Shown one piece after another: positions 1 to 59,500 of a DNA stretch of 64,000 nt; position 1 is the first letter of the stretch, and each line of letters starts with the position of its first letter. The notes under the pieces were generated by a model. The model had not been told where the DNA came from and searched no databases. It saw only the letters and a list, made by a program, of their open reading frames with translations. The position numbers and the translations under genes are program-made. The stretch comes from Phoronis australis (Eukaryota > Animalia > Phoronida): the NCBI GenBank assembly GCA_002633005.1, contig NMRA01000667.1:37280-101279 (forward strand). Direction: 5' to 3'.

Positions 1-360
1 AAAAATTCATGGGCATCCTGTTGACTTCCGTTGCCAAGAGAGTTGTTCTGTAATCTTAGTTTATTCAAAATTTCAGACGGAGTTGATGTATACTTTTTAG
101 CTGCTTCATATGTGTTCACAAGGATGGTTTTCATATTGTTTTTCTTGTTGATATTGTATTTGTGCCAGTTGAGGTTGCATGAAAAGATAGCTTGAAGTGT
201 AGAGTTCACAAAACACGTGTTTCCAACATTGCAAAGACCAAATCTGTTATCTTTTATTGATTTTTCATTTGTCTTCCTTGATATCGGGGATGACGAAATA
301 GCTAATTGCGTTTCAATCACGGGTTTAGAAATGTTGTAGAGTTGCCATTCCGTAAATTGC

Positions 361-866
361 TTGTTGTTTCTTGATAAATATATCATAACGGAGCATGCGT
401 TTGACGAAAAGGATCTATTTCTGCTGTTTTCTTCTTGTGGAACTCTAATGTTTGGCACGCTAACTGCTGTAGCAGGTTGGAATATGATTGCAAAAGGGTA
501 CAGTACTGAACATTTAAGTGACAAAATAACTGGCCCGGTAATATGGATTGTCACTTTTGACGCGATGACAAATGTCGTGCAAGTTATCGCCCAAAGTCGC
601 CTTATCATCAGAATTATGCGCGTCAAACCCAGCGATGACATGTCAGACGGAGAGAAAGAGTTTCTGTTCAATGGTGGTATGTTTTTGTTAGCGTCTAACT
701 TGGCATTGTGGGCATTAGATAGTTTTGTTGAGCTACAGTCTATCGAATCATTTCCCTTGCAGCACAAATACAATGGGACAAGCTGGAAGATCATAGTCTT
801 ACTCACATTTCCATTTACTTCTACCGCTTTCACAGCGTCGGTATACTTATCAATAACATCCATTGA
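361..866 (+). pseudogene. Otopetrin-family proton channel C-terminal region with an apparent frameshift (pseudogene or assembly error)
   Basis: ORF 361-873 is multi-TM and contains FLLASNLALWALDSF...W.II.LLTFPF. The otopetrin-type FYRFHS motif (ttc tac cgc ttt cac agc, 819-836) follows in a different frame that ends at TGA 864-866. The same frame upstream has hydrophobic stretches interrupted by stops at 193 and 337. Confidence 0.65.
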
Positions 867-5075: not shown

Positions 5076-6667
5076 TCGGATGAACGAGGCCCCTGCTGAA
5101 GAAACATGATAACTACGCTTGCTCTGTCCAGTTAACTGAAATTGAGCTCTAATACGAGATGAGTTTTTCAGGTTATGCTTTGGACGAATGAACTAGGTGT
5201 TTTAATTTTAAAATTCAACTTGGTCCAAATTGATATTTGAAACCCAACACAAGAAATAAACTTACATTGAATGTAAGAATTATTAAAACCAAAAAAGCAC
5301 AATTGATGGTCAAGTAGATTTTAGTTTCAATTACCAACCTGTTTTTCAGTAAAAAATACATTTAATAACATCAATCACTCTTGCAGATCAATGACAAATC
5401 AACTGTTAGTCCCGGTAGTCCCTACCTCCGTACCTAGGCTATGCTTGATGTTAATATTCTTTATCAACAAATTAAACCACTGAGATTTGACTTCACATGA
5501 CAGCAAAATGCATTACTGTCAAATATATCTTCAACTCGTCAAAAATACGAGCAGACGACCTGGTTCGTGTAGAAAGCATTTTTATCAAAAATATTTACAA
5601 GAAGAAACGTAACCCTTTATCCTGCATATACTTAATCCGTAAGACGATCACTGCAATTTGGTCACATTTACTTTTCATGTTTCGAACCTAGTTTTCCGGT
5701 TGGACTTGAAAGGCCAGCCATTTAACTCACTCAAAGTCAACTTCTGCTTTTTTATCGCAGTGAGCCTCGCTTTTGATGTATGAATTCGAGACTGGAGTAT
5801 GAACTCGAAACGCTTCAGTGCACGAAAAATTCCGCAGCTATACGTGAGCAGTGTTCGGACTTAGCAAATATGTAAATGTTCTGGCCTGCCGGGCAAGTTT
5901 GTCTGAAAATTTACTGGCCCGGCTGCCAAGTTGCTGAACCTACTTTTAGCAGCCCGGCTACCTACGTTTTTCTCCGAATATTCATTCCTATAAACTAAAT
6001 GCCGGCGCACAGTGTGCGTGAGAACCCTATTTGTTTTGCCACTAACTCTAGAAGAAGAGTTGTTGGTAACTGAGATGTATATGTAAACACCGCGTGAGCC
6101 GTAACTACGAAATAAAAACCCGGAACTGGATTCAACCAACATATTTTTGCAAAACACGTACGTTTCATCAGTACATAGAACTCTAAGCCAGAGTTCAATA
6201 AACAATTAAGTGAATGGAGCGATCGCGGACTCATGATTGCTCACACGGTTCAAAGTCATTGGCGAACAAAGGGTAGCTCCTCTGAAAATGTTGAAAAATC
6301 ACGCGAAATTGTCCTTATGATGTCCAAAAACTCCCCTCAAGTGACTGAAAAATTTCCCAGGCGAGCTTAGTCGAATTTTCGCCGTACGGTCGGACTGGGC
6401 CCGGTGTCCGGCAATTCATTGAAAGCGCACATAAGAATAGCAGAGCCTGTGAGAACTTGCTGCCGGATAGGAGTGCTGTTGATGGTGATCGGGAGGTATA
6501 ATTTTCCCCTCACGCCGAAATATTCCCCTCTTAGAAAATACAGGCTCCTTTCCCCTTGGATCATCATGAACAAGCGCCCAGGTCGACTGCCTGCTCAGTA
6601 CAGGCGGGCATCCTGGAACAAAAGCCTTGATGGTTACAGTTTTCGCCACTCGGTGCGCTACATGCAG

Positions 6668-6808
6668 TTTGAAAACGAGACTTCTAAGGAAGTTTGTTAA
6701 AACGAAGCCAATTGGTTCATTGGACACAACAACTTTGTATGCCTTATTATCATTGGCTAATTTTGAACGGAGCGGCAGTATTCAAGATCTTCATTTTCAT
6801 GGTTAAAG
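6668..6808 (+). promoter_or_regulatory. Putative CDK1 G2/M-type promoter and short 5' exon (copy A)
   Basis: CCAAT 6708, ATTGG 6719 and 6752 (33 bp apart), CHR-like TTTGAA 6762-6767, candidate donor AAG|GTATGC at 6808/6809. Confidence 0.45.
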
Positions 6809-7991
6809 GTATGCTTCCAGATTTATGCAATATTTATTGAAAATAATGAGATTAGCGCAATTATTTTTCACGTAATTTTATAAAAAAACATTACAATGTT
6901 GATTTGTGTCAGTTAAAATTGGGTGAAAATCGCACTTTGGAACGACAAAGTTTTAGTTTTCACTTCTTTTTCTGCCTTGAATTTGTCAGGTGTCCAGAAC
7001 TGAAGAGTCGAAATATTTGGCAACACGCACCCCTCGGCTGGCTGGATAGGGCTACAAAACTACTCATCGGTTTCTCTGTTTATTTCGTCCCATGAATTTT
7101 ATAGGGGTGTTAGGCCAAATATTGACAATTAATCGCCTGTGGATGTCGTAAGCATGCACCACAAGCCATCGTCTAACCGAAAAGTTACTCAACTCAAATA
7201 CGGTGAATAACACCGAATTAAACATACATTTCGTCATATGAATTATAATTAACACATACCATTACTCAGGAGATAATTTAGTCAACATAATCTGAAAATA
7301 TGAAAATCTGTTGGGGTTCACTTTGAGCTTCCCTTTGTAGTAATAACCGAGATTTCCCGAACCGGCAATCGAACCAGGATCCCCATAAAACCGATGGCTA
7401 AATCACAATCAAGGTCCATATTCGAGAGTTGACTGTATTACGGTCTCAAAAATTTTTTGTGATCACTTACCAAATGCAAACTGAATCTCATATGCAAAGA
7501 GTTATTTAGTTGTGCAAATTAAAAAAAAAAGATTCGTCAAAATCGGACAATGTTTAAGAAATTTATCCATGTTTTTGTCTATGAATTTCAAGCATTTTTA
7601 GCATTATGAGTGGCCATTTTAAAAATTACAATTTTCACCACTTAAGCTAACAGGCAATTGCACATGCTTCTTACAGTTTCGTGCTTGTTGCCTAACTCAC
7701 ATGGTGTCAATTGAAATTCTCTGCGGTTATCACGCGCGGTGAAAAAGTTCATTAATGGCAACCAAAATGGAGTTGGAGTTCTTCACCAAATTAATCTTAA
7801 ATTCACATAGACATGCTTCAGCAAGGATATGTATAGAACCAGAAAAGATTGTTGAAGAAAGTAAGCGCATTTTAAGAGTGTAAAATACATTTTGACAAGA
7901 TGCAAACCACTTACTTGGTGACTATATTTCGGCTACCAGACTTTTAGTACACAAACTGACGGCAGGACTTAAGCTCCCATAGCCAGCCGAG

Positions 7992-8092
7992 GGGCTACGT
8001 GTTGCCTAGGCCAAGACGGGCTACGTGTTGCCTAGGCCAAGACTGGCTACGTGTTGCCTAGGCCAAGACGGGCTACGTGTTGCCTAGGCCAA
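7992..8092. repeat. 26-bp tandem repeat x about 4 (copy A)
   Basis: Unit gggctacgtgttgcctaggccaagac. Confidence 0.95.
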
Positions 8093-9194
8093 ATCTGGTC
8101 ACCAAACAAGAGGTTTTTACATATACTTTCTTCAGCGATCATTCGGGTTCTATTCATATCTTCAATAAAGCATGTCTGCGGAAATTAATTAAGATGACTT
8201 CAATGGTGAAGAATTTCAATCCCCATTTTTTGGTCTCCGTTAACCTTTTCACCGCGCGCAATAACCACAAAGTATTTCAGTTGACATCACCTGGGTCAGG
8301 AAATGACATGTGCGAGACAGCTAAGCGCGTGACCTAGTTCATGACCCTTGCAAAAAGTAGCCTAGGAAGATATCGGTGGAATTTGTGCCCCTTGTAGTTT
8401 TTGTTCACCAACAGCCGTGAATTTGCGTAACTTCGCAAAAATGACACTGGGTGAAGAAAGCACAAGTGAACCATAACATATTTTCTTGGATGTTTTCAAA
8501 TTATGTTGACTATATTGTCTCCAGTGTCATATGGTAATTATAATTCAAAGTGTTTACAAGCTGTATTTTGAGATGAGTGACTATGGGGGTGTACTAACGT
8601 CTGTGTATGCCTGTAAATACTTATTTACAGACGGGGTACGTGTCTAGTGTATGCCTGGTGCACACACGGCAATGTAATTGCTAGAGTCATAATCGAACCA
8701 AACATTTTCAACTCATTGATTTGCATGGAAAATTCAGGAACACTGGCTTTCTTTCTCTATGTCAGACAATCTTATATATATCCGAAGGAACTTGAATCTT
8801 GAATTATTTATTGCTTGCTTTGCCTGAGATGAAAAGGTAAAATTAGCAAAACACTGTAATGTAATTACTGAGATCACTGGACTATAATTATTTATCTTTT
8901 AAGAGGATTTTCTCTTGTTTTGGTTTCGATTTCCTCTTATTTGATTTCCAGTATCCTCTTTTTTGTCTATTTTTTATTGTTATATTCATGCAAAAACTTG
9001 CATTTCATTTAAATTTTACAACGCAACTGTTTCTACCTCACGAACCTATTCATTTGTAGAACGATACATAACCTGGAAAACTTTTCCTCTTTTTGTCATC
9101 GGTCATTCCAAGTCCAGATCTGTGTCAATTTTATGCTTTGTTGTTTTTCAGGTGTATATAGTCTGTACATAGTGTGGGTTGTAGATACATTATC

Positions 9195-9231
9195 ATGGAA
9201 GACTATACAAAAATAGAGAAGATCGGAGAAG
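9195..9231 (+). CDS. CDK1: CDK1 start exon, duplicate in copy A ([12 protein letters not shown])
   Basis: Identical to 13635-13671; donor GTGAG. Confidence 0.6.
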
Positions 9232-10539
9232 GTGAGAAAACACTGATTCTGATTTTGTAGTTTAGCTGTAGCTAGTGTCCTTAAGCTCTCTCATCTGTGC
9301 TGCCCTCTCGGCATGGCTGGCAGACACACATATAACCCTCTGTGCATTTCCCTTTAATCTCTTACATTGACTATAATGGCATTCATGCAGTCGTCAGTTT
9401 TGCTGACTTAACAAAGGACTATTCGGAAAAACTGTTGAGTTCGGAACTATTTGCTTGAGGATTTAAAGACTCGAACTGCCTCTAAAAGTGTCCATCTTCT
9501 CATGAAAGCCACATATAGTATTGTAATTAGTTTAGTGAGGCCAAGCGTTAAGCGTAAATTGCAGAAAATGTCTGGGGTATAGGCTTGATTAGAATGTGAC
9601 GTCGTCTAAGCTGTAGTGTAATATCCGGCTCTGTTTGTAGTGTACATACGAATAAAGGCTTCTCTAAATAGCTTGCCAGTGCAATCGGCACTTGGCTACT
9701 GGCCTGTCTAATTGGACATTTGANAAATTCCGCAGCTATACGTGAGCAGTGTTCGGACTTAGCAAATATGTAAATGTTCTGGCCTGCCGGGCAAGTTTGT
9801 CTGAAAATTTACTGGCCCGGCTGCCAAGTTGCTGAACCTACTTTTAGCAGCCTACCTACGTTTTTCTCCGAATATTCATTCCTATAAACTAAATGCGCAT
9901 GTGCGTGAGAACCCTATTTGTTTTGCCATTAACTCTTGAAGAAGAGTTGTTGGTAAATGAGATGTATATGTAAACACCGCGTGAGCTGTAACTACGAAAT
10001 AAAAACCCGGAACTGGATTCAACCAACATATTTTTGCAAAACACGTACGTTTCATCAGTACATATAGAACTCTAAGCTAGAGTTCAATGAACAAAGTGAT
10101 TGGAGCGATCGCGAATTGCTCACACGGTACAAACATTGGCGAACAAAGGGTAGCTCCTCTAAAAATGTTGAAAAATCACGCGAAATTGTCCTTATGATGT
10201 CCAAAAACTCCCCTCAAGTGATTGAAAATTTTCCCAGGCGAGCTTAGTCGAATTTTCGCCGTACGGTCGGACTGCCGTGGGCCCGTTGTCAATTCATTGA
10301 AAGCGCACATAAGAATGGCAGAGCCTGTGAGAACTTGCTGCCGGATAGGAGTGCTGTTGATGGTGATCGGGAGGTATAATTTTCACCTCACGCCGAAATA
10401 TTCCCCTCTTAGAAAATACAGGCTCCTTTCCCCTTGGATGAACGAGCGCCCAGGTCGACTGCCTGCTCAGTACAGGCGGGCATCCTGGAACAAAAGCCTT
10501 GATGGTTACAGTTTTCGCCACTCGGTGCGCTACATGCAG

Positions 10540-10680
10540 TTTGAAAACGAGACTTCTAAGGAAGTTTGTTAAACCGAAGCCAATTGGTTCATTGGACACA
10601 ACAACTTTGTATGCCTTATTGTCATTGGCTAATTTTGAACGGAGCGGCAGTATTCAAGATCTTCATTTTCATGGTTAAAG
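10540..10680 (+). promoter_or_regulatory. Putative CDK1 G2/M-type promoter and short 5' exon (copy B)
   Basis: CCAAT 10580, ATTGG 10591 and 10624 (33 bp apart), CHR-like TTTGAA 10634-10639, candidate donor AAG|GTATGC at 10680/10681. Confidence 0.5.
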
Positions 10681-11208
10681 GTATGCTTCCAGATTTATGC
10701 AATATTTATTGAAAATAATGAGATAAGTGCAATTATTTTTCACGTAATTTTATAAAAAACATTACAATGTTGTTTTGTGTCAGTTAAAATTGAGTGAAAA
10801 TCGCAGTTTGGAACGACAAAGTTTTAGTTTTCACTTCTTTTTCTGCCTTGAATTTGTCAGGTGTCCAGAACTGAAGAGTCGAATTATTTGGCAACACGCA
10901 ACCCTCGGCTGGCTGGATAGGGCTACAAAACTACTCATCGGTTTCTCTGTTTATTTCGTCCCATGAATTTTATACGGGTGTTAGGCCAAATTTTGATAAT
11001 TAATTGCCTGTGGATGTCGTAAGCATGCACACCACAGGCGATCGTCTAACCGAAAAGTTAATCATCTCAAATACGGTGAATAACACCGAATTAAACATAC
11101 ATTTCGTCATATGAATTATAATTAACACATACCATTACTCAGGAGATAATTTAGTCAACATAATCTGAAAATATGAAAATCTGTTGGGGTTTACTTTGAG
11201 CTTCCCTT

Positions 11209-11979
11209 TGTAGTAATAGCCGAGATTTCCCGAACCGACAATCGAACCAGGACCCCCATAAAACTGATGAGCATGGCTGAATCACAATCAAGGTCCATAT
11301 TCGAGAGTTGACTGTATTACGGTCTCAAATAATTTTTTTGATTACTTACCAAATGCAAACTGAATCTCATATGCAAAGAGTTATTTAGTTGTGCAAATTA
11401 AAAAAAGAATCGTCAAAATCGGACAATGTTTAAGAAATTTATCCATGTTTTTGTCTATGAATTTCAAGCATTTTTAGCATTAGTGGCCATTTTAAAAATT
11501 ACAATTTTCACCACTTAAGCTAACAGGCAATTGCCCATTAGCGAGTAGCTAACAGTGGCTCATATGATTCACCGGAAGCACATATTTATTCTATAACATT
11601 CCCCCTTTCCTACAGAACAGGTACATCACCAGGAAGGTGAGCACCAGATGTCTCGCATACAGGTCATAAACGTCCCTTGATACCTTTACCACCACAACAC
11701 AGTTGAACACAAGGTTGTCTCTCATACAGGTCCTCGACTCCTGGAACTTTTACCATAACAATCTATGCGCGGGGTCCGCGGCTACTAGTTGGCAGTGCTT
11801 CGCTGATAGATCATCCGTTTGCCGACTACGCCATTTGTAGTAATAGCCGAGATTACCTGAGTAGGGAATTGAACCAGCGACGCCCATAAAACTGGCGTTC
11901 CTGCTAACCATTTAGCTTATAGGCCCGTTAGCGAGTAGCTAACAGAGGCTCATGATTCACCGGAAGCACATCTACAACA
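11209..11979 (-). mobile_element. Non-autonomous miniature LTR retrotransposon (TRIM) with tRNA-like LTRs
   Basis: On the minus strand: 5' LTR TGTTG...ATTACTACA (11979-11836); AA spacer; PBS TGGCGTAGTCGGCA (11833-11820); about 235-bp internal region; PPT AGGAAAGGGGGAA (11611-11599); 3' LTR TGTTA...ATTACTACA (11598-11209) with an insertion of about 245 bp. Confidence 0.8.
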
Positions 11980-11982
11980 ACT

Positions 11983-12907
11983 CACTGGGTGCCATTTTGT
12001 GGAAGTCGCGCGATATTCATGCCTGTTGTGGACGAACAAACAGTCCAATACCAAGGAACACAAATTTTCCAAATTCCACTGGATATATCCCCATGCTACT
12101 TTTTGCAAGTGCACATGCTTCTTACAGTTTCGTGCTTGTTGCCTAACTCACATGGTGTCAATTGAAATTCTCTGCGGTTATCACGCGCGGTGAAAAAGTT
12201 CATTAATGGCAACCAAAATGGAGTTGGAGTTCTTCACCAAAGTAATCTTAAATTCACATAGACGTGCTTCAGCAAGGATATGTATAGAACCAGAAAAGAT
12301 TGTTGAAGAAAGTAAGCGCATTTTAAGAGTGTAAAATACATTTTGACAAGATGCAAACCACTTACTTGGTGACTATATTTCGGCTACCAGACTTTTAGTA
12401 CACAAACTGATGGCAGGACTTAAGCTCCTATACAGCCAGCCGAGGGGCTACGTGTTGCCTAGGCCAAGACGGGCTACGTGTTGCCTAGGCCAAGACGGGC
12501 TACGTGTTGCCTAGGCCAAGACGGGCTACGTGTTGCCTAGGCCAAATCTGGTCACCAAATAAGAGGTTTTTACATATACTTTCTTCAGCGATCATTCGGG
12601 TTCTATTCATATCTTCAGTAAAGCATGTCTACGGGAATTAATTAAGATGACTTCAATGGTGAAGAATTTCAATCCCCATTTTTTGGTCTCCGTTAATCTT
12701 TTCACCGCGCGCAATAACCACAAAGTATTTCAGTTGACATCACCTGGGTCAGGAAAGGACAAGCGCGAGACAGCTAAGCACGTGACCTAGTTCATGACCC
12801 TTGCAAAAAGTAGCATGGGAAGATATCTGGTGGAATTTGTGCCTCTTGTACTTTTTGTTCACCAACAGCCGTGAATTTGCGTAACTTCGTAAAAATGGCA
12901 CTGGGTG
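11983..12907. mobile_element. Foldback/MITE-like element with imperfect inverted arms of about 370-400 bp and a central 26-bp array (left-truncated counterpart at about 7660-8453)
   Basis: Inverted pairs: gtgccatttt / aaaatggcac; atgctactttttgcaag / cttgcaaaaagtagcat; cgcgcggtgaaaa / ttttcaccgcgcg; ttcttcacca / tggtgaagaa. Confidence 0.8.
12445..12545. repeat. 26-bp tandem repeat x about 4 (copy B)
   Basis: Unit gggctacgtgttgcctaggccaagac. Confidence 0.95.
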
Positions 12908-13336
12908 AAGAAAGCACAAGTGAACCATAACATATTTTCATGGATGTTGACTATATTGTCTCCAGTGTCATATGGTAATTATAATTCAAAGTGTTTACAT
13001 GCTGTATTTTGAGATGAGTGACTATGGGGGTGTACTAAAGTCTGTGTATGCCTGTAAATACTTATTTACAGACGGGGTACGTGTCTAGTGTATGCCTGGT
13101 GCACACACGGCAATGTAATTGCTCGAGTCAAAATCGAACCAAACATTTTCAACTCATTGATTTGCATGGAAAATTCAGGAACACTAGCTTTCTTTCTCTA
13201 TGTCAGACAACCTTATATATATCCGAAGGAACTTGAATCTTGAATTATTTATTGCTTGCTTTGCCTGAGATGAAAAGGTAAAATTAGCAAAACACTGTAA
13301 TGTAATTACTGAGATCACTCGACTATAATTACTTAT

Positions 13337-13551
13337 CTTTTTAGAGGATTTTCTCTTTTTTGGTTTCGATTTCCTCTTATTTGATTTCCAGTATCCTCTT
13401 TTTTGTATATTTTTTATCGTTATATTCATGCAAAAACTTGCATTTCATTTAAATTTTACAACGCAACTGTTTCTACCTCACGAACCTATTCATTTGTAGA
13501 ACGATACATAACCTGGAAAATTTTTCCTCTTTTTGTCATCGGTCATTCCAA
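13337..13551 (-). repeat. Dispersed repeat of about 220 bp (also 8897-9111; opposite orientation at 28481-28700 and 44068-44287)
   Basis: The reverse complement ttggaatgaccgatgacaaaaagaggaaaa...aaatcctct matches the copies in RPTOR introns. Confidence 0.7.
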
Positions 13552-13634
13552 GTCCAGATCTGTGTCAATTTTATGCTTTGTTGTTTTTCAGGTGTATATA
13601 GTCTGTACATAGTGTGGGTTGTAGATACATTATC

Positions 13635-13671
13635 ATGGAAGACTATACAAAAATAGAGAAGATCGGAGAAG
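13635..13671 (+). CDS. CDK1: CDK1 coding exon 1
   Basis: [12 protein letters not shown](G); donor gtgag. Confidence 0.92.
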
Positions 13672-16600
13672 GTGAGAAAACACTGATTCTGATTTTGTAG
13701 TTTAGCTGTAGCTAGTGTCCTTAAGCTCTCTCATCTGTGCTGCCCTCTCGGCATGGCTGGCAGACACACATATAACCCTCTGTGCATTTCCCTTTAATCT
13801 CTTACATTGACTATAATGGCATTCATGCAGTCGTCAGTTTTGCTGACTTAACAAAGGACTATTCGGAAAAACTGTTGAGTTCGGAACTATTTGCTTGAGG
13901 ATTTAAAGACTCGAACTGCCTCTAAAAGTGTCCATCTTCTCATGAAAGCCACATATAGTATTGTAATTAGTTTAGTGAGGCCAAGCGTTAAGCGTAAATT
14001 GCAGAAAATGTCTGGGGTATAGGCTTGATTAGAATGTGACGTCGTCTAAGCTGTAGTGTAATATCCGGCTCTGTTTGTAGTGTACATACGAATAAAGGCT
14101 TCTCTAAATAGCTTGCCAGTGCAATCGGCACTTGGCTACTGGCCTGTCTAATTGGACATTTGATTGGCGTGCTTACGGCCTGGCGTCTACAGTGTCCATG
14201 GACAGGTAGACTTCAGTTAACAGCTGTATACTTGCTATTGACACTATACCCATGATAGGAATTCGTACGATCTTTGTTGAATAAATAGTATTTGAAACGA
14301 TTTTACGTCATGTATTTTACTTTTAGCCTGTTTGAATAGAATTAAGTGCCGTCCACACTCATGAGACTTACTTTAGATCAGGTTAGTCCTGGAACTAGTT
14401 GTCGCTAGATTTAGAAGCTGTCTGGTGCTATTTGAACAACTGAAAGTGACAACTTCATATTATATAGATCTATAGAATACCTTGTTCTAGGGTTATTTGC
14501 GCCACTTTTAACTGCTGTGTGCACACAAAGTTGGGGTAAGGTGGAAGTGATTATCAGCTGCGTGTTTGCGCAGTTACATTGTATTCATGTGGATCTTCTC
14601 AGCTGTTCATTGTTAGGTATAGAGCGACAACTTTCACCTTGCGCCAGTTATCAGATATTTGTGTGGACGCTCCACGTAAAGTGGGACAAGTTGCACTTAC
14701 ATAAACTGTTCTAGGAAAGTGTTTGCGGACGGCACTGGAGACTTAGTCATCTTGTTTTATTTACTGAACTGCACACGGGGTAAAAATTTGAAGGGCAGCA
14801 GAAGACGGAGGCAATTGCAAAGTTTGTATTCAGTAAATTAGTGTGGATTTGAAGCAGAAATGTTTATGAGGTCTTAGTATGAATAATTTTTATTTCTTCA
14901 GTATATATTATTTGTCATGTAATTATGATGTTGCTGTAAGGTTGTAAACTTGTAAGGGGGAGCCTCTTTCTCACAGAGACCGAGTCCTGGTAGCTCATAT
15001 GCTTGTATTGTATTGCCAGGTACGTACGGCGTTGTCTACAAAGGCCGTCGCCAGAGCGACAACAAGTTTGTTGCTCTGAAGAAGATACGCCTGGAGAGTG
15101 AAGAGGAAGGCATCCCGTCCACAGCAGTGAGGGAGATATCTCTTCTCAAGGAGTTGCAGCATCCCAATATAGTGTGGTAGGTGCACACCGTATGGACATG
15201 CACGTGTTCAGGGTGGTGCACGCGCCTTCAATTACGTGAACAAATTAGATACTTAGGTTCACACCATTTACGCATGTACGTGTTTAAGGGCACATTCCTT
15301 CAATTATGTGAACTATTTAGGTGCACACCGTTTATACACGTACACGTTTAGGGGCACATGTGAACAATGCGGGGCCTTTGCTAGACAGTGCCGTCTCAAC
15401 TGGCCCCAGTAGAGACAGTGACGATGCCATGGGCTCTCCATATGCCTGAAGCTTTTCGGTGCATTATTTCTTACACTGATTAAACCATCAAAGTCATGTT
15501 ATACCTTTTGCGTATGATATCATATCCTTCCATGGGCTAAAGGTGTTAAAATAGCCAGTTGCTGATTTGGGCAACTCAATGGAAGACTGTTCGGGTAAAA
15601 AGTTTGATTGCGGTGGAATTTGTTCGAGCTAGGAACAGTTAAAGACATCAATAGCCTCCTAAAGAGTATAATTCGTTAAAAGCTTCCGGTGTGTGGAGAG
15701 CCTATGGGATGGCCACCGTCTGACAGTAACTTAAATAAATTGACGTGTGGTTCTAAAATTGTTGTCATGGATAGCCTGAAAAATTCGAAATCCCTAATTT
15801 AAACGCCCTGTTTTTGAAATCCTGGTTTTGCTCGAAAAGCAAATCAAAGAAGTTTGTTTAAAAGTATTTCAATGAAATTTGGTAACGTTAAGGTTGATGA
15901 AGATTCACTTTCAATTCAAAGTTAGCCACTGGTGGTGTTCTGTTATCATGGTATACTGTTCGACCATATTGAACATGTCACCAAGTATACTTGTCATTTT
16001 TGTAAATTGCTTACCTGTATTTGCATACATGTGTCTCAACAACTGTAATTGAGAGAATTAAGTACGCTTTTGATGCAATTTCAAGTTTATAGAATGCAGG
16101 GACTTTAATTGTTAGCCAAGGAGTGCTATCTTTATGGTAAAAGTATGGGACAAATAGCAAAAGTCAGTTAGTGGCTCGTTGTAACCGCTATTGTCAGGGT
16201 TGTGTCATTTCCTACAGCCTGGAAGACATTCTTCATCAGGAGAAAAAGTTGTACCTAGTCTTTGAGTTCCTGTCCATGGATTTGAAGAAGTATCTTGATT
16301 CCATACCCGATGGCCAAGTGATGGACCCCTCACTGGCTAAGGTAGGTCCTAGTAATTTGGAATGTGGTGAGTTTTAAAGGTTAGAATGTAACTTTTTGAA
16401 GGTTTAAATTGGTTAGATAGTCTGTTTTGTTTGTAAATTGTATGTGTGTTCTCCAACATCACGTGAATGGACTGCGGCATTTTGCCCCTTGGCTTTAAAG
16501 TTCTAAATTTGAGCCCTGTGTTCAGCGCCTCACTGTGGTTGGTTTCAGAGCTACCTGTATCAGATCACGCAGGGTATCCTGTTCTGCCACATGTGCCGTG

Positions 16601-19600
16601 TGATCCACCGTGACTTGAAGCCACAGAACCTGCTCATCGACAAGAAGGGCGTCATCAAGCTGGCCGACTTCGGTCTTGCCCGCGCCTTCTCCATCCCTGT
16701 CAGAGTATACACACACGAGGTCAGTGCTCCCGTGTACGATAGACTGTTTACTAGCGTTCAAGCGCCTTACCACCACCACAGTCAGAAGCGTTTAACAGGG
16801 AGGGGCTCAAAGCGGGATAAATGGACTAAGCTATGAAATGTGCTGGACAATAATCACAATCTTGTTTTGAACAGTGTCACGACCCCCTTGTGTCCTGTGT
16901 ATGACAGTACACATGCCTTTGTACATGACGGGATGTCTCTTAAGAGTTTGATCAATTTTTAGTTTACATTGGGTGTCAATTCATTACTGGACTTTCGGCG
17001 CACTTGCTAACTCGTATTTCATGAGTCGGCACCCAGAGCACCGCTTCTGAAATGGTTGTCATGTAGTTAAAAACAGGTGAGAAACAGCACGCGCTAAAGG
17101 CCTTTTTAAAAATAACTGACGCTCTTTTGGAGAGTGCAGTTAGATGATAGAGCTGGTTTTGAGAACGTACTCGAGCATCTCATGTGTGAACTGAAAAAAT
17201 ATACGGTGCCTACTCAGTCTCTTGTAGAAGAAATGAGTATGTGCAAGGATATAGTTCTTTGTAAATTACAAGCTTAACCAGAAGGGCACTCTCATCTCTG
17301 CTGGTTTAAAGCGCACGTTTGTCTGCAACTTTTGAAAGTTGAAACAAAACCTAGAAGGGAAAAGCACAAGGTTTAAAACAAACTTAAAGTATTTTGTTCT
17401 CGTTTTAAAGCCCACAAGCAAAAATTGGCAAAATCAAATGCATTTTGCTCCTTAGCTTGTGCTCAATTCGAACACTGCTATGTCAAAAATATCCTTAAAT
17501 GTACTTTCTGACAGTCTGTGGAACAGATTGTTTCTTCAAAAATGCTTTGTTTTTCCTATCAAAGTTATTAGATTGCTATGTGGCGATGTTGCAAGGAAGT
17601 TTTGCCTTTCCACAGAAGGTGGAGCTGTTCAATTTCCAAAGTCTCGTGGCTTTTTACCATGCAGGTGTACTTAAGTGCTGCTTCAGATATTGAATGTTTA
17701 CCATAGTGTCATTTGGCTTAAAATTCTTATTCTAAAGATTATGGAAAAAGTGCGAATTCTATTTTCAAGTGTTCAGTGATCCTGGATTGGTTTTGAAAAA
17801 AAATAGTTGCATCATATATATATATGTGTGTGTGTATGTATATGTATGTGATATTGCAAAGGCTAGAAATGATATGACAGCAGAAGGCTCCAGGAGTTGT
17901 TTGAACTAAATTCAACTACGTATATTCGGAACGAGAGTATATAGCACATCTGTGTATTGACTTTGGCTCATTATTGACTGGACACTGTAGATAACGTAGT
18001 CCTACTCGCATTCTAGGTCGTGACCCTGTGGTATCGGGCCCCTGAAGTGCTGCTAGGGTCTACTAGATACTCAACACCCCTAGATGTCTGGAGTATCGGC
18101 TGCATATTTGCCGAGATGATCACCAAGCGCCCCCTCTTCCATGGTGATTCGGAAATCGACCAGCTTTTCCGCATTTTCAGGTGAGTGAGGCAATAAAGCG
18201 GGCACTGGCTTCATGAACAACGTTCAGCAAGCGAGCCCTCAAATGTAGGCAAGTTCTCGTAATCGTTCTCAATAGCTAGTTCTCTTAGTAATCCAAGATG
18301 GCGTGACATTAGATTTCCAAGGCGATTGCCTTGAGGAGTGGCAATGATTTTAAGCAGTTCACGTTGGAAGTACACCACAGTATGCACTACAAGATTGTCG
18401 GCAATAATTGTCGAAAGTGTACAGAAATAAATAATTTAATTTAGTGGCAAAGCTTGCTTTATGTTAGTTTGGTGGCCTTTTTGTGCACACTGTCATTCAA
18501 CAGCGAGCTCTGTTTAGGGTGGTGTCCGCGTTTACTTTAGGCAGGCACGCACCCTGTTGAACAGGTCGGACGCTTCTGAAGGGTGCTTGATGTTCTAACC
18601 ACTGATGGGTGTAATTCTGCTGACGCTGTGGTGTCTCGGCTCCAAAATGCACTCGTTCGATTACAATTCAGTTAACTGTAAAACCGCACATGCTGGAATG
18701 GTGTTGTTGCTTTCCCGTGAATTGACCTGAAGTTTTCAAAGTTATCTTCTTTATCTGTGATGGCATGACCAGGTTATACTTACTAATTTTTGTGCCATTT
18801 TGTGGAGAGGATAAAGGGCTACACGACAAAATACAAATTGAAATCCGTTTTCCTTGCCACTTGTCAAACCCCTTTTGGGTGGTCAAAGCTCTTGAGTGTT
18901 TTGTTTGGGGATGAACATGGTATTGAAAGGTTTGGAGAATATTTTGTGCAATTGATTACAATTATAACACGTATTTCTGGTCTTAACCCGTGAAACCAAA
19001 TGTTTTTAAGACACTTTGTGGGAAAAGAAACTCGTCATTTGCATGAAAATAGCGCCAGGACATTTTGTAGCGAAGCGACTTTTTCTAAAAATATTATTTT
19101 TTACTTTGTTTGCCATTGCTTCCGTCAACTTGAAACTTTTCTTTTAAAATTTATATATTCTGTTTCTTCCTTCTATTGGTTGCAAACCGCTTGTGGTATT
19201 TCGTTTAGGCCTTATAACCAGAGTATGTGGCTTTCAAAAACTGAAGGTTTTAACGATCCGCAAAAATATTTGAATGTTTTCGTTTTTGGCAGCTCAGATC
19301 TTCGGCTAAGATGCCTGATACGAAAACATGCATTTGTAGATAATAGAACAAATAAACAACATTTGCGAGTTATGGGCAAAAATCTTCATTTGTGGAAACT
19401 GCAGTGATGCTTACCAAGGATGTTGAAAATACAGTAAAACTAATAGGTCAGACATGCATAAGACGCACACAACGCAGGCCCAGTTCTGCAGTACAATTGT
19501 TTTTGTTCATGTACGGGTAACCGTAAACTTAATGCCCTGGGCGCTTAAATTGGAAAACCCCAAGACAAAGTGGGCGATTACCCAAGCAGTGGGTGCTTAA

Positions 19601-53500: not shown

Positions 53501-56500
53501 ACACAGACTGCTTTAAATGCATTAACCGACATAGCTAATGACTCCAAAACACATTTGGTGGAGCTTGAAAAATCATTAGACACATATTGCTCACGAACTC
53601 TTTGTGCAACCAATGTTTTCACATTGCCACATATAAAATAACTCCTTAGTTGTAGTTAATGAAAATAAAATGCTTAATTTGAACCCAGGTCAAAACCTTA
53701 AAATGTCATTTCTCAATAGAATAATTAGGAATACAGGGGACTGATAACTGCCTCATACCCTCCATGCAATAAATCATGTGAATTTCTGGTCGCATGGTTC
53801 AAAAAATTTCCCAGGGATTAATTACCCCTGACTGGAGTAAAATTCCCCAATCAGAATGCACAGGCACCGTTCCTGTAAGGTGCAATGAGGTACGAGAATA
53901 AAATTATTTTCATAAAAAATAATACTTAATCTAACCTGTGGCTATGAAATTCTTTAAATTTTATTACTTATTAAAATGACGCAGTAGCACCTGGAGAACA
54001 AGAGTTCAAGTTTCGGAAAACAAGTTCCTACCAGTGTGGAAGATAATCATTCTAGTCGTATTTATTAACAATTCAGTCTGTATTTAAGTTTAACCATGCC
54101 ACGACCCTAGATGGTTTGATTTTGTGACAAGCAATCCTATTCCCCTGTGGAAGTATTTTTATAAAACATGCAAACTTACACTCCAATGATTAGAAAATTC
54201 CCCTAAAATTTAGAATTACTTCTGGAGAGTGTTAGGCTTGTGTACTAATTAAGAGCATAGGTATCTATGGTGCTGTAATGACCACAATATTTGCTCAATA
54301 TAAACAGATTGATCACAAAACTAAACATTTGAGTTCAGCTGCTCCCATGCCACCCCAGTGAAGTGAGCTGGTCAAGGACAGCAACGTTGTACTGTCTAGG
54401 CACACCGCGCCATTTTATGATCTTTATTACAAAAAACACAATGTAGGTAGAAAGCAATTATATCTAGGCACACCGTGGTCATAGTGTTGGGTTTCTATTT
54501 AAGAAATGATTACTTGTACCTGAGGGATACTGGTTTGAATGCATGGAAATTCAATGGACTAAAAAATTTCATCAAATTCCTGAAAAATGCCCTTCATTGT
54601 AATCCGGGCATTCTTAAACTGGATGGTTGTGAGTGACCTTTTATTCATTCTCATTACTAATCTAAGTTGAAAACATTCATGTGGGGTACATAACTTAACC
54701 TCTGTAGGCTTTTCACACCTTTTGTGTGGTTGACTAACATTCTTTAGGGACCACAAGAATGTTAATCATAATGTCAAAGGTGACTTAGAGAAAACTGAAG
54801 TTAGGATGTTATATATAATTCATATTGCCAAAAAAAAAACAGATTTGGCTGGAGAACTAAAATAACTATGATTATGTAAGCGCAATGTGAAAGATTTAGG
54901 TAGACACAATTGCACATAATCTTCTGAGTTTAGTCTTGGTTGAGTTTCAGGAACATAGTACAAATGAAATCAAAACAAAAGTCATATTTGAGTTGAGAAT
55001 ATTCTTTTATGACTTTACGGGCTACCTCTAATGTAAAAAGCTTCACACGATATTTAACTAACTCATTGGCTTTCCTCAAAGGTTTCACAACTGCGTGCGT
55101 CTAAAATTGGAGATAGGCTAAACTTCGCACATGGGCCTAAATGCACCTACATGGAGTATAAATATTTGCTAAACTTTCATTGCTCAATAACTCCAGGTCA
55201 TATAGTTTCGCGCTGCAGTAAGTCGTCAGTTATTTGCACGAACACAAAATGATCAATGCAATGACATTCCAGAGGTTAACAACCTTGCTGCAAATGATCA
55301 AAAGTATACACGTAATTCTATGGCATGCCTACTACACAATGGTGGCAAGAACTAAGTGCACTGATTTTCTAAGAGGATCTTTTAGTCCAGTGTCATTCTT
55401 CTCTATATCTGTCACCTTTCAAATTTGTGAAAAATTTATCACACCCTTGTGTTGGTGAACTAAGTAACACAGGCAAAGCAGGTTAACTACCAGAACACAA
55501 GCCTGACAGCTGACCCTTACATAACCACAGCCTAAGCTAATGGAAAACACAATACTCTAGAAGGGAGCAGAGTGATAACCTGCTAGTCCCTAGGAAATAG
55601 GTCAAAACAAGTTCATCTAGTGCAGCCCTGATTATTGACATGCAGTAATACCCCTTGTGCAAATCTATATGCGCTTGCGCGAAATCTTAGTTCCGCTAGA
55701 GCATCATGGGATCGTTTGAGGTTACCGCGTGACTAAGTCTACAGCTGTTGTTCCGTAAATTTGCGAGTCATGGAGAAAAAACTTACAGAGAACGATGTTT
55801 TTGGTGCAAAACTGGATGTGCCGTTTGAGGCAGCAAGTGTCGCTCGACTAAAGCGCTGGCTGAAATGCCGTGGTGCGCAGACTACTGGAAGGAAACCAGT
55901 CTTAATTCAACGGTAAGTACCGGAGTTGTAAGGAATGTAAGGCCTACACTGCGACGTGGTCACAACGTTGAACCACTCGTAATCGGGGCTATGAAGAGCT
56001 TTGATTTTTTATTTGTCACACTTTAGTGTACCCCGATGTTCCTTGTGAGATAAACACAGCAATTAATTATGTCAAGTCCAGTCAAGGGGTATTGTATGTT
56101 TTCTTTAGCCGCAGTGCTGTTCCTATTCAGCCCAGAGNTAAAAGATGCAAACTTACACTCCAATGATTGGAAAATTCCCCTAAAATTCAGAATTACTTCT
56201 GGAAAGTGTTAGTCTTGTATACTATAATCAAGAGCATAGGTATCTATGGTGCTGTAATGACCACAATATTTGGTCAATATAAACAGACTGATCACAAAAC
56301 CAAACATTTTAGTTCACATGCTCCCATGCCACCCCAGTACTATTGAAGTGAGCAGGTCAAGGACAAAACGTTGTACAGTCTAGGCACACCGTGACATTTT
56401 ATAATCTTTATTACAAAAAACACAATGTAGGTAGAAAGCACTTATATCTGGGTACACCGTGGTCATAGTGTTGGGTTTCCACTTAAGAAAACCTAAATGA

Positions 56501-59500
56501 TTACTTGAACCTGAGGGGTACTGGTTTGAATGCATGGAAATTCAATGGACTAAAAAATTTCATCAAATTCTTAAAAAATGCCCTTCATTGTAATCCGCGC
56601 ATTCTTAAACTGCATGGTTGTGAGTGACCTTTTATTCATTCTCAGTAGTAATCTAAGCTGAAAACATTCATGTGGGGTACATAACTTAACCTATGTAAGC
56701 TTTTCACACCTTTTGTGTGGTTGACTAACATTCTGTAGGGACCACAAGAATGTTAATCTTAATGTCAAAGGTGACTTAGAGAAAACTGAAGTTAGGGTGT
56801 TTATATATAATTCATTATGCCAAAAAAGACCAGATTTGGCTGGAGAACTAAAATAACTATGATTATGTAAGTGCAGTGTGAAAGATTTAGATCGACCCAA
56901 TTGCACATGATCTTCTGAGTATGGTCTTGGTTTAGTTTCAGGAACTTGGTACAACTGAAATCAAAACAAAAGTCATATTTGAGTTGAGAATATTCCTTAA
57001 TGACTTTACGGGCTACATCTAATGCAAAAAGCTGCACATGACATTTGACTAACTCATTGGCTTTCCTGAAAGGTTTCACCATTGCGAACGTCTAAAATTG
57101 GAAATAGGCTAAGCTTCGCACACGGGCCTAAATGCCCCTACATGGAGTATACATATTTGCTTAACTTTCATTGTTCAATAACTCCAGGTCATACAGTTTT
57201 GAGCGAAAGTAAGTTGCCAGTTATTTGCACAAACACATAACAATCAATGTAATGACACTTCAGAGGTTAACAGCCTTGCTGCAAATGATCAAAAGTATAC
57301 ACAATATTGCAATTCCATGGCATCCCTACTATACAATGGTGGCAAGAACTATGTGCACTGATTTTCTAAGAGCATCTTTTAGTCCAGTGTCATTCTCCTC
57401 TATATCTGTCACCTTTCAAATTCGTGAAAAATTTATCACCACACCCTTGTGTTGGTGAACAAAGTGACACAGGCAAAGCAGGTTAACTACCAGAACACAA
57501 GCTTGACAGCTGACCATTACATAACCACAGCATAAGCTAATGGGAAACACAATACTCTAGAAGGGAGCAGAGTGATAACCTGCTGGTCCCTAGGAAATAG
57601 GTCAAAACAAGTTCATCTAGTGCAGCCCTGATTATTGACATGCAGTAATTGTTTTGTTATGAAATTGCGCCTTAAGTTGTCATACATGGCAGGGTCCTGT
57701 AGGACCTCATAGCCAAGTCTGCATACTGAGGCAAATATGTACAATACAGTTACTATAAAGTTTAACTCAGTAAAACTTTGTAAATGTTTTGAAAGCAGAA
57801 AGTCTGTAAAACTTGATTTCGGACATTTTGGCAATCTGCCATCAATATGTCTCGTGTGAGCATAACAATTTGGTAAGATTTAGCAACAAAAGAAAGGTAC
57901 ATTGATAGCAAAACAAATGCATCAATAACATTCCTAAAATTTATGTGAAATAAATGTTCAAGATGAAATTTCAAAAATGCTGTTACAGTTTTCTAAATTA
58001 ACATATCGTTTGATGCAACTTTAGTTTATCCGTGAAAGTCACAAAAATCCTGTTATTTGATAACCCCTCACGCAAAGATGGAGCGTTTTAAAAACAAATC
58101 CTGACAGGGGTTGGGAGAACAGTGCGCAGAGCATAACATTTGAAAGTTTCGGATGAATACCATCTGCCATTTTCGAGATACGATGTTGTGAATTTAGCCA
58201 AATTTGGACATCTTGAGCTATTGTATAACCCTGAAACTAACAACACAGCTCCTAATGCAAGAAAGCAACAAGGGAGCACGTACCCATGGAGATAAGGCAG
58301 AAGGCAATGCGAAAATTTAGGCTCATAAACTGAGGCAGCTCAACAGTTCAGATGCAATCTGATCTGGATGANAATATGTACAATACAGTTACTATAAAGT
58401 TTAACTCAGTAAAACTTTGTATATGTTTTGAAAGCAGAAAGTCTGTAAAATTTGATTTCGGACATTTTGGCAATCTGCCATCAATATGACTCGTGTGAGC
58501 ACAACAATTTGGTAAGATTTAGCAACAAAAGAAAGGTACATTGATAGCAAAACAAATGCATCAATAACATTCCTAAAATTTATGTGACATAAATGTTCAA
58601 GACGAAATTTCAAAAATGCTGTTACGGTTTTCTAAATTAACATATCGTTTGATGCAACTTTAGTTTATCCGTGAAAGTCACAAAAATCCTGTTATTTGAT
58701 AACCCCTCACGCAAAGATGGAGCGTTTTAAAAACAAATCCTGACAGGGGTTGGGAGAACAGTGCGCAGAGCATAACATTTGAAAGTTTCGGATGAATACC
58801 ATCTGCCATTTTCGAGATACGATGTTGTGAATTTAGCCAAATTTGGACATCTTGAGCTATTGTATAACCCTGAAACTAACAACACAGCTCCTAATGCAAG
58901 AAAGCAACAAGGGAGCACGTACCCATGGAGATAAGGCAGAAGGCAATGCGAAAATTTAGGCTCATAAACTGAGGCAGCTCAACAGTTCAGATGCAATCTG
59001 ATCTGGATGAAAGTTTCATTACTGTTGATACAGAACAGCTAATGTGGAACTAGCAGGCTAATTCCTTATCTGTGTGACTGCTTGACCAAATTAGTTAGGA
59101 ACACAACATACAGCCGCGATGTGTATATGAAGTGGGTAGAAAATTGCCAAATGTTTCTGAGAATGAGTTTTGTGGCGAAAATGATCCACAACAAATCGCC
59201 GCACAATGTCCAGTAAATCGTGACATGGTGCTGCATGATGTGGGCTATGTGAGCGAGGTACGGCATTAGTGCAAAGGTCACCTATTCGCTGAATTTTTGT
59301 TTTTACATCAACAATGTGTCAGTGAATATACCTGCCCTTTTATGTTGAGCACAGATTATGTTAAAATAGCATTGTCGTTTAGTTCCTGCTATACATTAGC
59401 ACTGTTGGGAGCATGCAAATACATCTTTAATGATGACTGGAGTCCCACATTAGGGAGCAAGATTGGACAATTTATCAGTCACAAAGAGTTGGGTAACAGT

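What the first reader, a model, noticed from the sequence alone, without database searches (positions are those of the whole stretch)
11209..11979. Miniature LTR retrotransposon whose LTRs carry a tRNA-like Pol III module
Seen on the minus strand: a 144-bp LTR (TG...CA), a 2-nt spacer, TGGCGTAGTCGGCA, a non-coding core of about 235 bp, a purine tract AGGAAAGGGGGAA, then a second TG...CA LTR. The LTR contains TAAGCTAAATGG (A-box-like, with D-stem GCTAA/TTAGC), an ACGCC/GGCGT stem around a TTTTA loop, and GGTTCAATTCC (B-box; GGTTCGATT in the other LTR). Known: the 14-mer is complementary to the 3' end of eukaryotic tRNA-Ser (...UGCCGACUACGCCA). Plant Cassandra TRIMs carry 5S rRNA-derived LTR sequence, and from memory tRNA-bearing TRIMs (Ajax) have been reported in only a few invertebrate phyla. 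Inference: a SINE-like Pol III-driven element mobilised in trans by LTR-retrotransposon machinery, possibly a new family. Caveats: no target-site duplication is visible and the LTRs have diverged, so this copy is old.
Basis: partly seen in the sequence, partly recalled or inferred. Interest (0 to 1): 0.8.

Follow-up and report, generated by a model that had tools for sequence, protein, structure and literature searches.

The report
Helenus mini-retrotransposon with shared RNA palindrome
This is an old, interrupted copy of a small, gene-less, many-copy jumping element of the "Helenus" type described in 2024, and beside its tRNA-like promoter motifs it carries a self-pairing stretch that by eye also appears in many fish, clam and ribbon-worm relatives and likely acts as an RNA pairing signal.

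Summary
The element is real. The minus strand reads: 144-bp LTR, tRNA-Ser primer site, 208-bp core, purine tract, second LTR.

The family is abundant: 922-1352 contigs per run align, and two other copies show matching 4-bp flanks. The LTR holds the window's only exact B box, with an A box 32 nt upstream.

This is a Helenus TRIM (PMC10886601). No catalogued family matches. The host is a lophotrochozoan outside the sampled nemerteans, bivalves and gastropod. Earlier scan notes report Helenus-type elements in other genomes.

New here: a small hairpin and a loopless 24-nt palindrome run into the A box, pairing fully only on the sense strand. By eye, that layout recurs with changing letters in 18/18 vertebrate, 33/51 bivalve and 3/3 nemertean Helenus LTRs and 2/2 Ajax LTRs. 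The paper does not mention it. Pol III transcription is not shown.

The parts
11836..11979 (-). 5' LTR, 144 bp, TG...CA
   Evidence: family-wide LTR ends seen as loose ends at 11836, 11979 and 11583 in DNA contigs and RNA reads
11928..11942 (-). small hairpin (TTAGC-5 nt-GCTAA) in the 5' LTR; this LTR has lost 6 central bases of the palindrome that follows
11908..11918 (-). A-box-like motif, 1 mismatch to the recalled consensus
   Evidence: other copies read TAGC at its start (joined and loose-end letters)
11865..11875 (-). B box, the only exact match to the recalled consensus on either strand of the window, 32 nt after the A box
11820..11833 (-). primer-binding site, 14 nt complementary to the 3' end of tRNA-Ser, after a 2-nt spacer
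11612..11819 (-). non-coding core, 208 bp, with a decayed ~65-bp internal duplication and no run of 4 T on the sense strand
11599..11611 (-). polypurine tract abutting the 3' LTR
   Evidence: a purine tract also abuts the LTR start in a contig of organism B (run X6)
11209..11598 (-). 3' LTR, interrupted (390 bp as it stands; about 154 bp without the insert)
11519..11542 (-). 24-nt loopless palindrome ending in the TAGC of the A box; its two departures are G-U pairs on the sense strand; its 5' arm is also the 3' arm of the small hairpin 11553-11538
   Evidence: (I15)
11275..11510 (.). unrelated multi-copy AT-rich repeat inserted into the 3' LTR between the A and B boxes (ends approximate)
   Evidence: loose ends with varied flanks at 11275-11276 and at 11510; other copies run from 11518 straight into the tRNA-like part
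11980..11983 (-). left copy of a decayed 4-bp target duplication (GAGT)
   Evidence: length accounting against empty sites (tables 5 and 5c)
11205..11208 (-). right copy of the decayed 4-bp target duplication (AAGG)
   Evidence: same
12879..12988 (+). uninterrupted copy, in inverted orientation, of the older repeat into which the element inserted (an in-window empty site)
   Evidence: (I3, I4, I8)
7336..7658 (-). second copy of the site: only the 3' LTR remnant with the same insert; the 5' LTR and core are removed by a ~578-bp deletion

Best explanation
This is an old, interrupted copy of an abundant non-coding LTR retrotransposon of the Helenus type (LTR, tRNA-Ser primer site, short core, purine tract, LTR, decayed 4-bp target duplication), likely transcribed by RNA polymerase III from tRNA-type A and B boxes inside the LTR and likely copied and inserted by the enzymes of a Gypsy element. 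Shown: the anatomy, many related copies, the LTR ends, the boxes, the primer site. Inferred steps: (1) Pol III starts just 5' of the A box of the 5' LTR, so the RNA begins within the palindrome. It reads through the only 4-T run (11891-11888), crosses a core without 4-T runs, and ends in the 3' LTR. (2) Host tRNA-Ser primes the first strand and the purine tract the second; a helper Gypsy integrase makes the 4-bp duplication. (3) The full hairpin-plus-palindrome would be present only in the 3' LTR part of the RNA, where it likely pairs two RNAs for packaging, as palindromes do in Ty1, or helps the polymerase stop. This copy later took an insertion in its 3' LTR and lost the palindrome centre in its 5' LTR; it is very likely dead.
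For: Layout. Copy number: 922, 1132 and 1352 contigs of three DNA runs of one sample of organism A align at 80% or more to 11100-12100 (this count includes the inserted repeat and the flanking repeat), with depth over both LTRs and the core; 11 contigs align in organism B. Target duplication: 4 extra bases at this site versus three contig-joined empty sites and one in-window empty site; the dominant flanks at the two LTR ends read GGGC/GGGC in run X9 and CTTC/CTTC in run X7. Boxes: the only A+B pair in the window at A<=1, B=0 mismatches; most reads of other copies carry the letter that gives GGTTCGATTCC. Primer site. Sizes fit the Ser-primed mytilid Helenus (LTR 141-156, internal 226-268). Kojima links animal Helenus to 4-bp duplications and Gypsy primer sites. 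Palindrome: 1 in the window on the sense strand, 0 on the other, 0 in 20 shuffles; predicted self-duplex -38.2 kcal/mol sense versus -28.4 antisense. Precedents: Ty1 palindromes are needed for RNA dimers (PMC6844567, abstract); a hairpin next to a 4-T run raises Pol III termination (PMC9278858, abstract and one Discussion section).
Against: No tRNA call by ARAGORN at default or by Rfam, and no cloverleaf fold. RNA-seq shows no pile-up of starts or ends; 82-85% of the 714-802 aligned reads per run continue into unrelated sequence, both orientations occur, and only 4-12 reads per run are 99% or more alike to this stretch. That fits copies carried inside host transcripts and shows no Pol III product. 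Both copies of the duplication here differ from the empty site by one base, and the empty sites differ among themselves. The perfect 4-bp pairs come from flank majorities of one run each, not from single molecules; in X7 the LTR's terminal dinucleotide is altered. No helper Gypsy was seen. The palindrome criteria were chosen after seeing it. The palindrome lies about 40 nt upstream of the 4-T run, further than the adjacent hairpins in PMC9278858, which weakens the termination role.
Confidence: 0.8

Rival explanations
1. An ordinary Pol II-driven TRIM whose LTR once captured a tRNA-derived SINE head; the boxes are passengers.
For: No tRNA fold or model hit; no Pol III-like starts in RNA-seq; a 4-T run lies between the boxes.
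Against: Most reads of other copies carry letters closer to the box consensus than this copy. A 4-T run is a very weak stop in yeast in vitro. Box conservation is the family-wide pattern in Helenus.
Confidence: 0.12
2. The palindrome works as DNA, as a binding site for a dimeric protein or a by-product of template switching, and not as an RNA signal.
For: Several scallop and nemertean centres read like an NF-kB site (motif recalled). Loopless palindromes can arise by template switching (recalled). The 5' LTR here lost the centre.
Against: The centre letters differ between families while staying self-complementary (by eye). Departures here are G-U-compatible only on the sense strand, as were those I noted in the published LTRs.
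Confidence: 0.3
3. The span is a chimera of two separate insertions or a recombinant between copies, not one insertion.
For: The LTRs are only 85% alike and the two duplication copies differ from each other.
Against: Both flanks join into one empty site with exactly 4 extra bases. Most aligned records from other copies are under 95% alike to this stretch, so 15% between LTRs fits age. A 416-nt contig of run X5 spans LTR-core-LTR in the same order.
Confidence: 0.05
4. An LTR 'retrozyme' that uses a self-cleaving ribozyme, as earlier scan notes proposed for other tRNA-headed LTR elements.
For: Lead from notes e1-10599781 and e1-10588737 (unchecked). A short stretch of the core loosely recalls a twister motif (recalled).
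Against: No ribozyme family at E<=10 in 11000-12200 or in the LTR alone. Only about 30 nt follow the B box in the LTR.
Confidence: 0.03

Closest known systems
Helenus TRIMs (TRIMp3), animal families; Kojima 2024, PMC10886601 (whole text; supplement parts 1, 5-7, 9-11 of 11 read)
   Same: Non-coding, under 1 kb, two LTRs with A/B boxes, tRNA 3'-end primer site, purine tract, 4-bp duplication. Size and Ser priming resemble Helenus-2_MyGa, -2_LimFor and -2_MoPh. The hairpin-palindrome-A box layout is seen by eye in many families.
   Different: No shared family sequence: 8 of 10 short motifs absent from the supplement, the other two only in fungal internal regions. This primer-site sequence is not in Fig. 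S2. No T run follows the B box, unlike many listed LTRs. The host falls outside the sampled bivalve, gastropod and nemertean branches.
Ajax TRIMs (nemerteans; same paper)
   Same: TRIM anatomy. By eye both Ajax LTRs carry a palindrome running into an A-box-like motif ahead of their 5S part.
   Different: Ajax has a 5S rRNA promoter fragment, a tRNA-Leu primer and 5-bp duplications; no 5S hit here.
Cassandra (plants; as described in PMC10886601)
   Same: TRIM with a Pol III-type promoter in the LTR; the only such element with transcripts shown.
   Different: 5S rRNA-derived and restricted to land plants.
biv-TRIM (bivalves; PMC6934838, passages)
   Same: Small animal TRIM with inverted repeats.
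   Different: No canonical primer site; its palindromes lie in the inner domain, not at an LTR A box.

Membership tests
Helenus | TRIM under 1000 bp, non-coding, two LTRs | tested here: met
   771 bp with the insert, about 535 without; no ORF of 75 aa or more lies within it
Helenus | Primer-binding site and polypurine tract between the LTRs | tested here: met
Helenus | A box (TRGCY...YGG) and B box (GGTTC) inside the LTR | tested here: met
   unique A+B pair in the window; the 5' LTR A box has 1 mismatch, the 3' LTR and other copies read TAGCT
Helenus | Overall similarity of the LTR segment to a tRNA gene | tested here: inconclusive
   no ARAGORN or Rfam tRNA hit for this decayed copy; Censor and tRNAscan-SE are not available
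Helenus | 4-bp target duplication (animal families) | tested here: met
   4 extra bases at this site; matching 4-bp flanks inferred for two other copies
Helenus | Interspersed multi-copy family | tested here: met
   varied flanks at the LTR ends in DNA contigs and RNA reads
Helenus | Autonomous Gypsy partner with the same primer site | not testable with these tools
   no genome is held for this window
Helenus | Pol III transcription (proposed, not shown, in the defining paper) | tested here: inconclusive
   standard RNA-seq shows family reads but no start or end pile-ups
Any catalogued Helenus family | Sequence identity with a Data S1 entry | tested here: not met
   10 motif searches (line breaks can hide a match) and reading of all 57 bivalve, brachiopod and nemertean and all 18 vertebrate LTRs
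Ajax / Cassandra | 5S rRNA-derived promoter in the LTR | tested here: not met
   no 5S hit at E<=10

The most novel reading that the evidence does not exclude
Helenus families of fish, coelacanth, sturgeon, many bivalves, nemerteans and this host, and also Ajax, share an undescribed LTR module: a small hairpin whose 3' arm doubles as the 5' arm of a loopless, G-U-tolerant palindrome ending in the A box. The centre letters change between families but stay self-complementary. That would make these elements one old (or horizontally spread) lineage rather than independent SINE captures, and would supply a candidate cis-signal, likely an RNA dimerisation or packaging switch, by which a Pol III RNA enters a Gypsy particle.
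Probability: 0.45. Interest if true: 0.6.

Novelty: new member of a known kind. Interest (0 to 1): 0.36.

Why it matters
As a single element it adds a family, a primer type and probably a host group to a class described in 2024, which is a modest gain. The shared module matters more. The defining paper says it is not known how such elements stay dependent on their helper, and it proposes several independent origins. A conserved self-pairing RNA element across vertebrate and lophotrochozoan families would bear on both points and can be tested with an alignment and a dimer gel.

Tried and rejected
No genome is held for the window, so there was no genome-wide copy or Gypsy search.

Metagenome scan with a 19-mer: 7 hits, all 7 limited to 19-22 bp of match, rejected as chance.

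Run search: no holder on record as RNA was listed among the indexed runs; this is no evidence either way.

Relaxed ARAGORN: 26 calls in the window at -ps80 and 211 at -ps70, uninformative. Rfam scans: one chance-level hit each.

Host placement: the otopetrin fragment gave no hit and then only 27-41% identity hits. A variable Raptor exon gave 1 distant hit. The Atlas gave no answer. The Raptor tree is the quick method only, used 19 of 121 stored proteins, had exon pieces picked with a nemertean query, and holds no annelid, brachiopod, phoronid, chiton or cephalopod, so the class is open.

The second copy at 7336-7658 is not an empty site but a later deletion.

No earlier scan note matched by sequence or for the palindrome words.

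Literature searches: Helenus+Ajax+retrotransposon (5 papers, 4 listed); TRIMp3 (6 listed, 1 relevant); Helenus since 2024 (21 papers, 20 listed, 4 relevant); TRIM/tRNA/LTR/Phoronis/annelid/Helenus (3 listed, genome papers, listing only); LTR-11_DR with palindrome (8 listed, none relevant). 'palindrom' and 'hairpin' occur 0 times in PMC10886601 and 'palindrom' 0 times in PMC13570524. Repbase and Dfam could not be searched, and figures are not held.

Full report
Observation. The minus strand reads: 5' LTR 11979-11836 (144 bp, TG..CA), spacer AA, primer site 11833-11820, a 208-bp core, purine tract 11611-11599, and a 3' LTR 11598-11209. The primer site is the only match in the window at up to one mismatch (shuffle mean 0.01). 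It is identical to the first 14 letters of an antisense template for human tRNA-Ser in PMC3299991 (passage). The B box at 11875-11865 is the only exact match to the recalled consensus on either strand, and an A-box-like motif with one mismatch lies 32 nt upstream. A whole tRNA is not detectable: ARAGORN 0 genes, no Rfam tRNA hit at E<=10, fold z 0.58.

The 3' LTR is 390 bp because about 236 bp of another repeat sits between its A and B boxes. In DNA contigs that repeat has its own end with varied flanks at 11275-11276, while other copies of the LTR run from 11518 directly into the tRNA-like part. Outside the insert the LTRs match at 114 of 134 positions. The element landed in an older repeat. 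An uninterrupted copy lies at 12879-12988, and contigs join 11168-11174 to 11981-11982 across the element. Against these empty sites the filled site has 4 extra bases (GAGT left, AAGG right on the minus strand), a decayed 4-bp duplication.

Family. Of three DNA runs from one sample of organism A, 922, 1132 and 1352 contigs align to 11100-12100 at 80% or more, most under 95%. These counts include the inserted and flanking repeats, but depth covers both LTRs and the core, and loose ends mark the LTR ends. Eleven contigs align in organism B, one with a purine tract at the LTR start. In RNA runs the dominant flanks at the two LTR ends read GGGC and GGGC (X9) and CTTC and CTTC (X7), which points to perfect 4-bp duplications at two other loci; this is inferred from flank majorities, not single molecules.

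Expression. In three RNA-seq runs, of which about 18-19% was read, 802, 777 and 714 reads align. Of these 82-85% run on into unrelated sequence, both orientations occur, 4-12 are 99% or more alike, and there are no start or end pile-ups. Family copies are therefore present in RNA, most likely inside host transcripts. A Pol III product is not shown, and these libraries are poorly suited to show one.

Host and setting. The window holds a spliced Raptor gene, a kinase exon and an otopetrin fragment. A quick tree of 20 Raptor proteins puts the host with nemerteans and molluscs (support 98) but outside the nemertean pair (99) and the bivalve-gastropod group (99). Annelids, brachiopods, phoronids, chitons and cephalopods were not sampled. 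The site occurs twice: 5824-9723 and 9722-14163 are 98% alike with a single N at their junction, so the second copy is likely the other allele assembled in tandem. It lacks about 11532-12109 by deletion.

Comparison. Kojima 2024 (PMC10886601; whole text; supplement parts 1, 5-7, 9-11 of 11) defines Helenus as TRIMs with tRNA-like LTRs in fungi, a plant and six animal phyla. Animal families have 4-bp duplications and Gypsy-like primer sites; Ajax carries 5S sequence. This element meets the tested Helenus features, except overall tRNA similarity, which is inconclusive. It is not a listed family. Earlier scan notes hold the Helenus search words 81 times in at least 17 genomes (8 shown, unchecked).

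The added observation. In the 3' LTR a 24-nt loopless palindrome (11542-11519) ends in the TAGC of the A box, and its 5' arm is also the 3' arm of a small hairpin (11553-11538). With a perfect 5-pair core and G-U allowed beyond it, it is the only 12-pair palindrome in the window, found on the sense strand only; 0 of 20 shuffles give one (criteria set after seeing it). The predicted self-duplex is -38.2 kcal/mol sense and -28.4 antisense. The 5' LTR has lost 6 central bases. Reading Data S1 by eye, an inverted repeat abutting the A box is present in 18 of 18 vertebrate, 33 of 51 bivalve, 3 of 3 nemertean and 0 of 3 Lingula LTRs, and in 2 of 2 Ajax LTRs; it is absent from the ctenophore LTR. Of the 32 positives among the 45 LTRs in parts 6-7, 19 have an even self-complementary centre, 2 a wobble centre and 11 a one-base centre. 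The upstream hairpin is visible in many but was not counted. Wasp and fungal LTRs were not scored, and parts 2-4 and 8 were not read. The paper's text has no 'palindrom' or 'hairpin'; figures were not visible. This tally has no statistical control and related families are not independent.

Mechanism. Most likely (0.8) Pol III transcribes from the internal boxes, tRNA-Ser and the purine tract prime reverse transcription, and a Gypsy helper integrates the copy; these steps are inferred from anatomy and from PMC10886601. If transcription starts just 5' of the A box, the whole module appears only in the 3' LTR part of the RNA. I favour a role in RNA pairing for packaging, by analogy with Ty1 (PMC6844567, abstract), over a role in termination at the 4-T run (PMC9278858, one section), which lies about 40 nt away. 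A DNA-level role is the main rival (0.3).

Verdict. A new member of a known kind, interest 0.36. The shared module is the part worth following: probability 0.45, interest 0.6 if true.

Noticed in passing
window 5824-9723 and 9722-14163; also 54162-57649 and 57734-59010: Three tandem near-identical blocks (91-99% alike), each with a single N at or near the junction (9724, 56138, 58372): likely uncollapsed alleles or overlaps in the assembly.
   Followed up: partly
window 27367-63341, minus strand: Spliced Raptor (RPTOR) gene of about 30 exons, about 75% identical over aligned exon pieces to scallop and nemertean proteins.
   Followed up: partly
window 3-866 minus and 340-870 plus: A ubiquitin-hydrolase (UCH) open frame running off the window start overlaps an otopetrin fragment on the other strand. 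Earlier notes describe LINEs with such a domain in this genome (unchecked).
   Followed up: no
window 16513-16833, plus strand: Protein-kinase exon that reads like a cyclin-dependent kinase (family name recalled).
   Followed up: no
window 11112-12988: Nested inverted repeats: arms 12070-12314 and 12577-12839 around a 26-bp minisatellite (12445-12545), inside the older repeat that received the TRIM.
   Followed up: partly
window 11275-11510: The inserted repeat is itself abundant and present in RNA reads; some copies extend beyond 11510, so this one is truncated. Its type was not determined.
   Followed up: partly
PMC10886601 Data S1, Ajax LTRs: Both Ajax LTRs have a tRNA-type A-box-like motif just after the palindrome and ahead of the 5S part, which suggests that Ajax arose from a Helenus-type LTR (by eye).
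   Followed up: no
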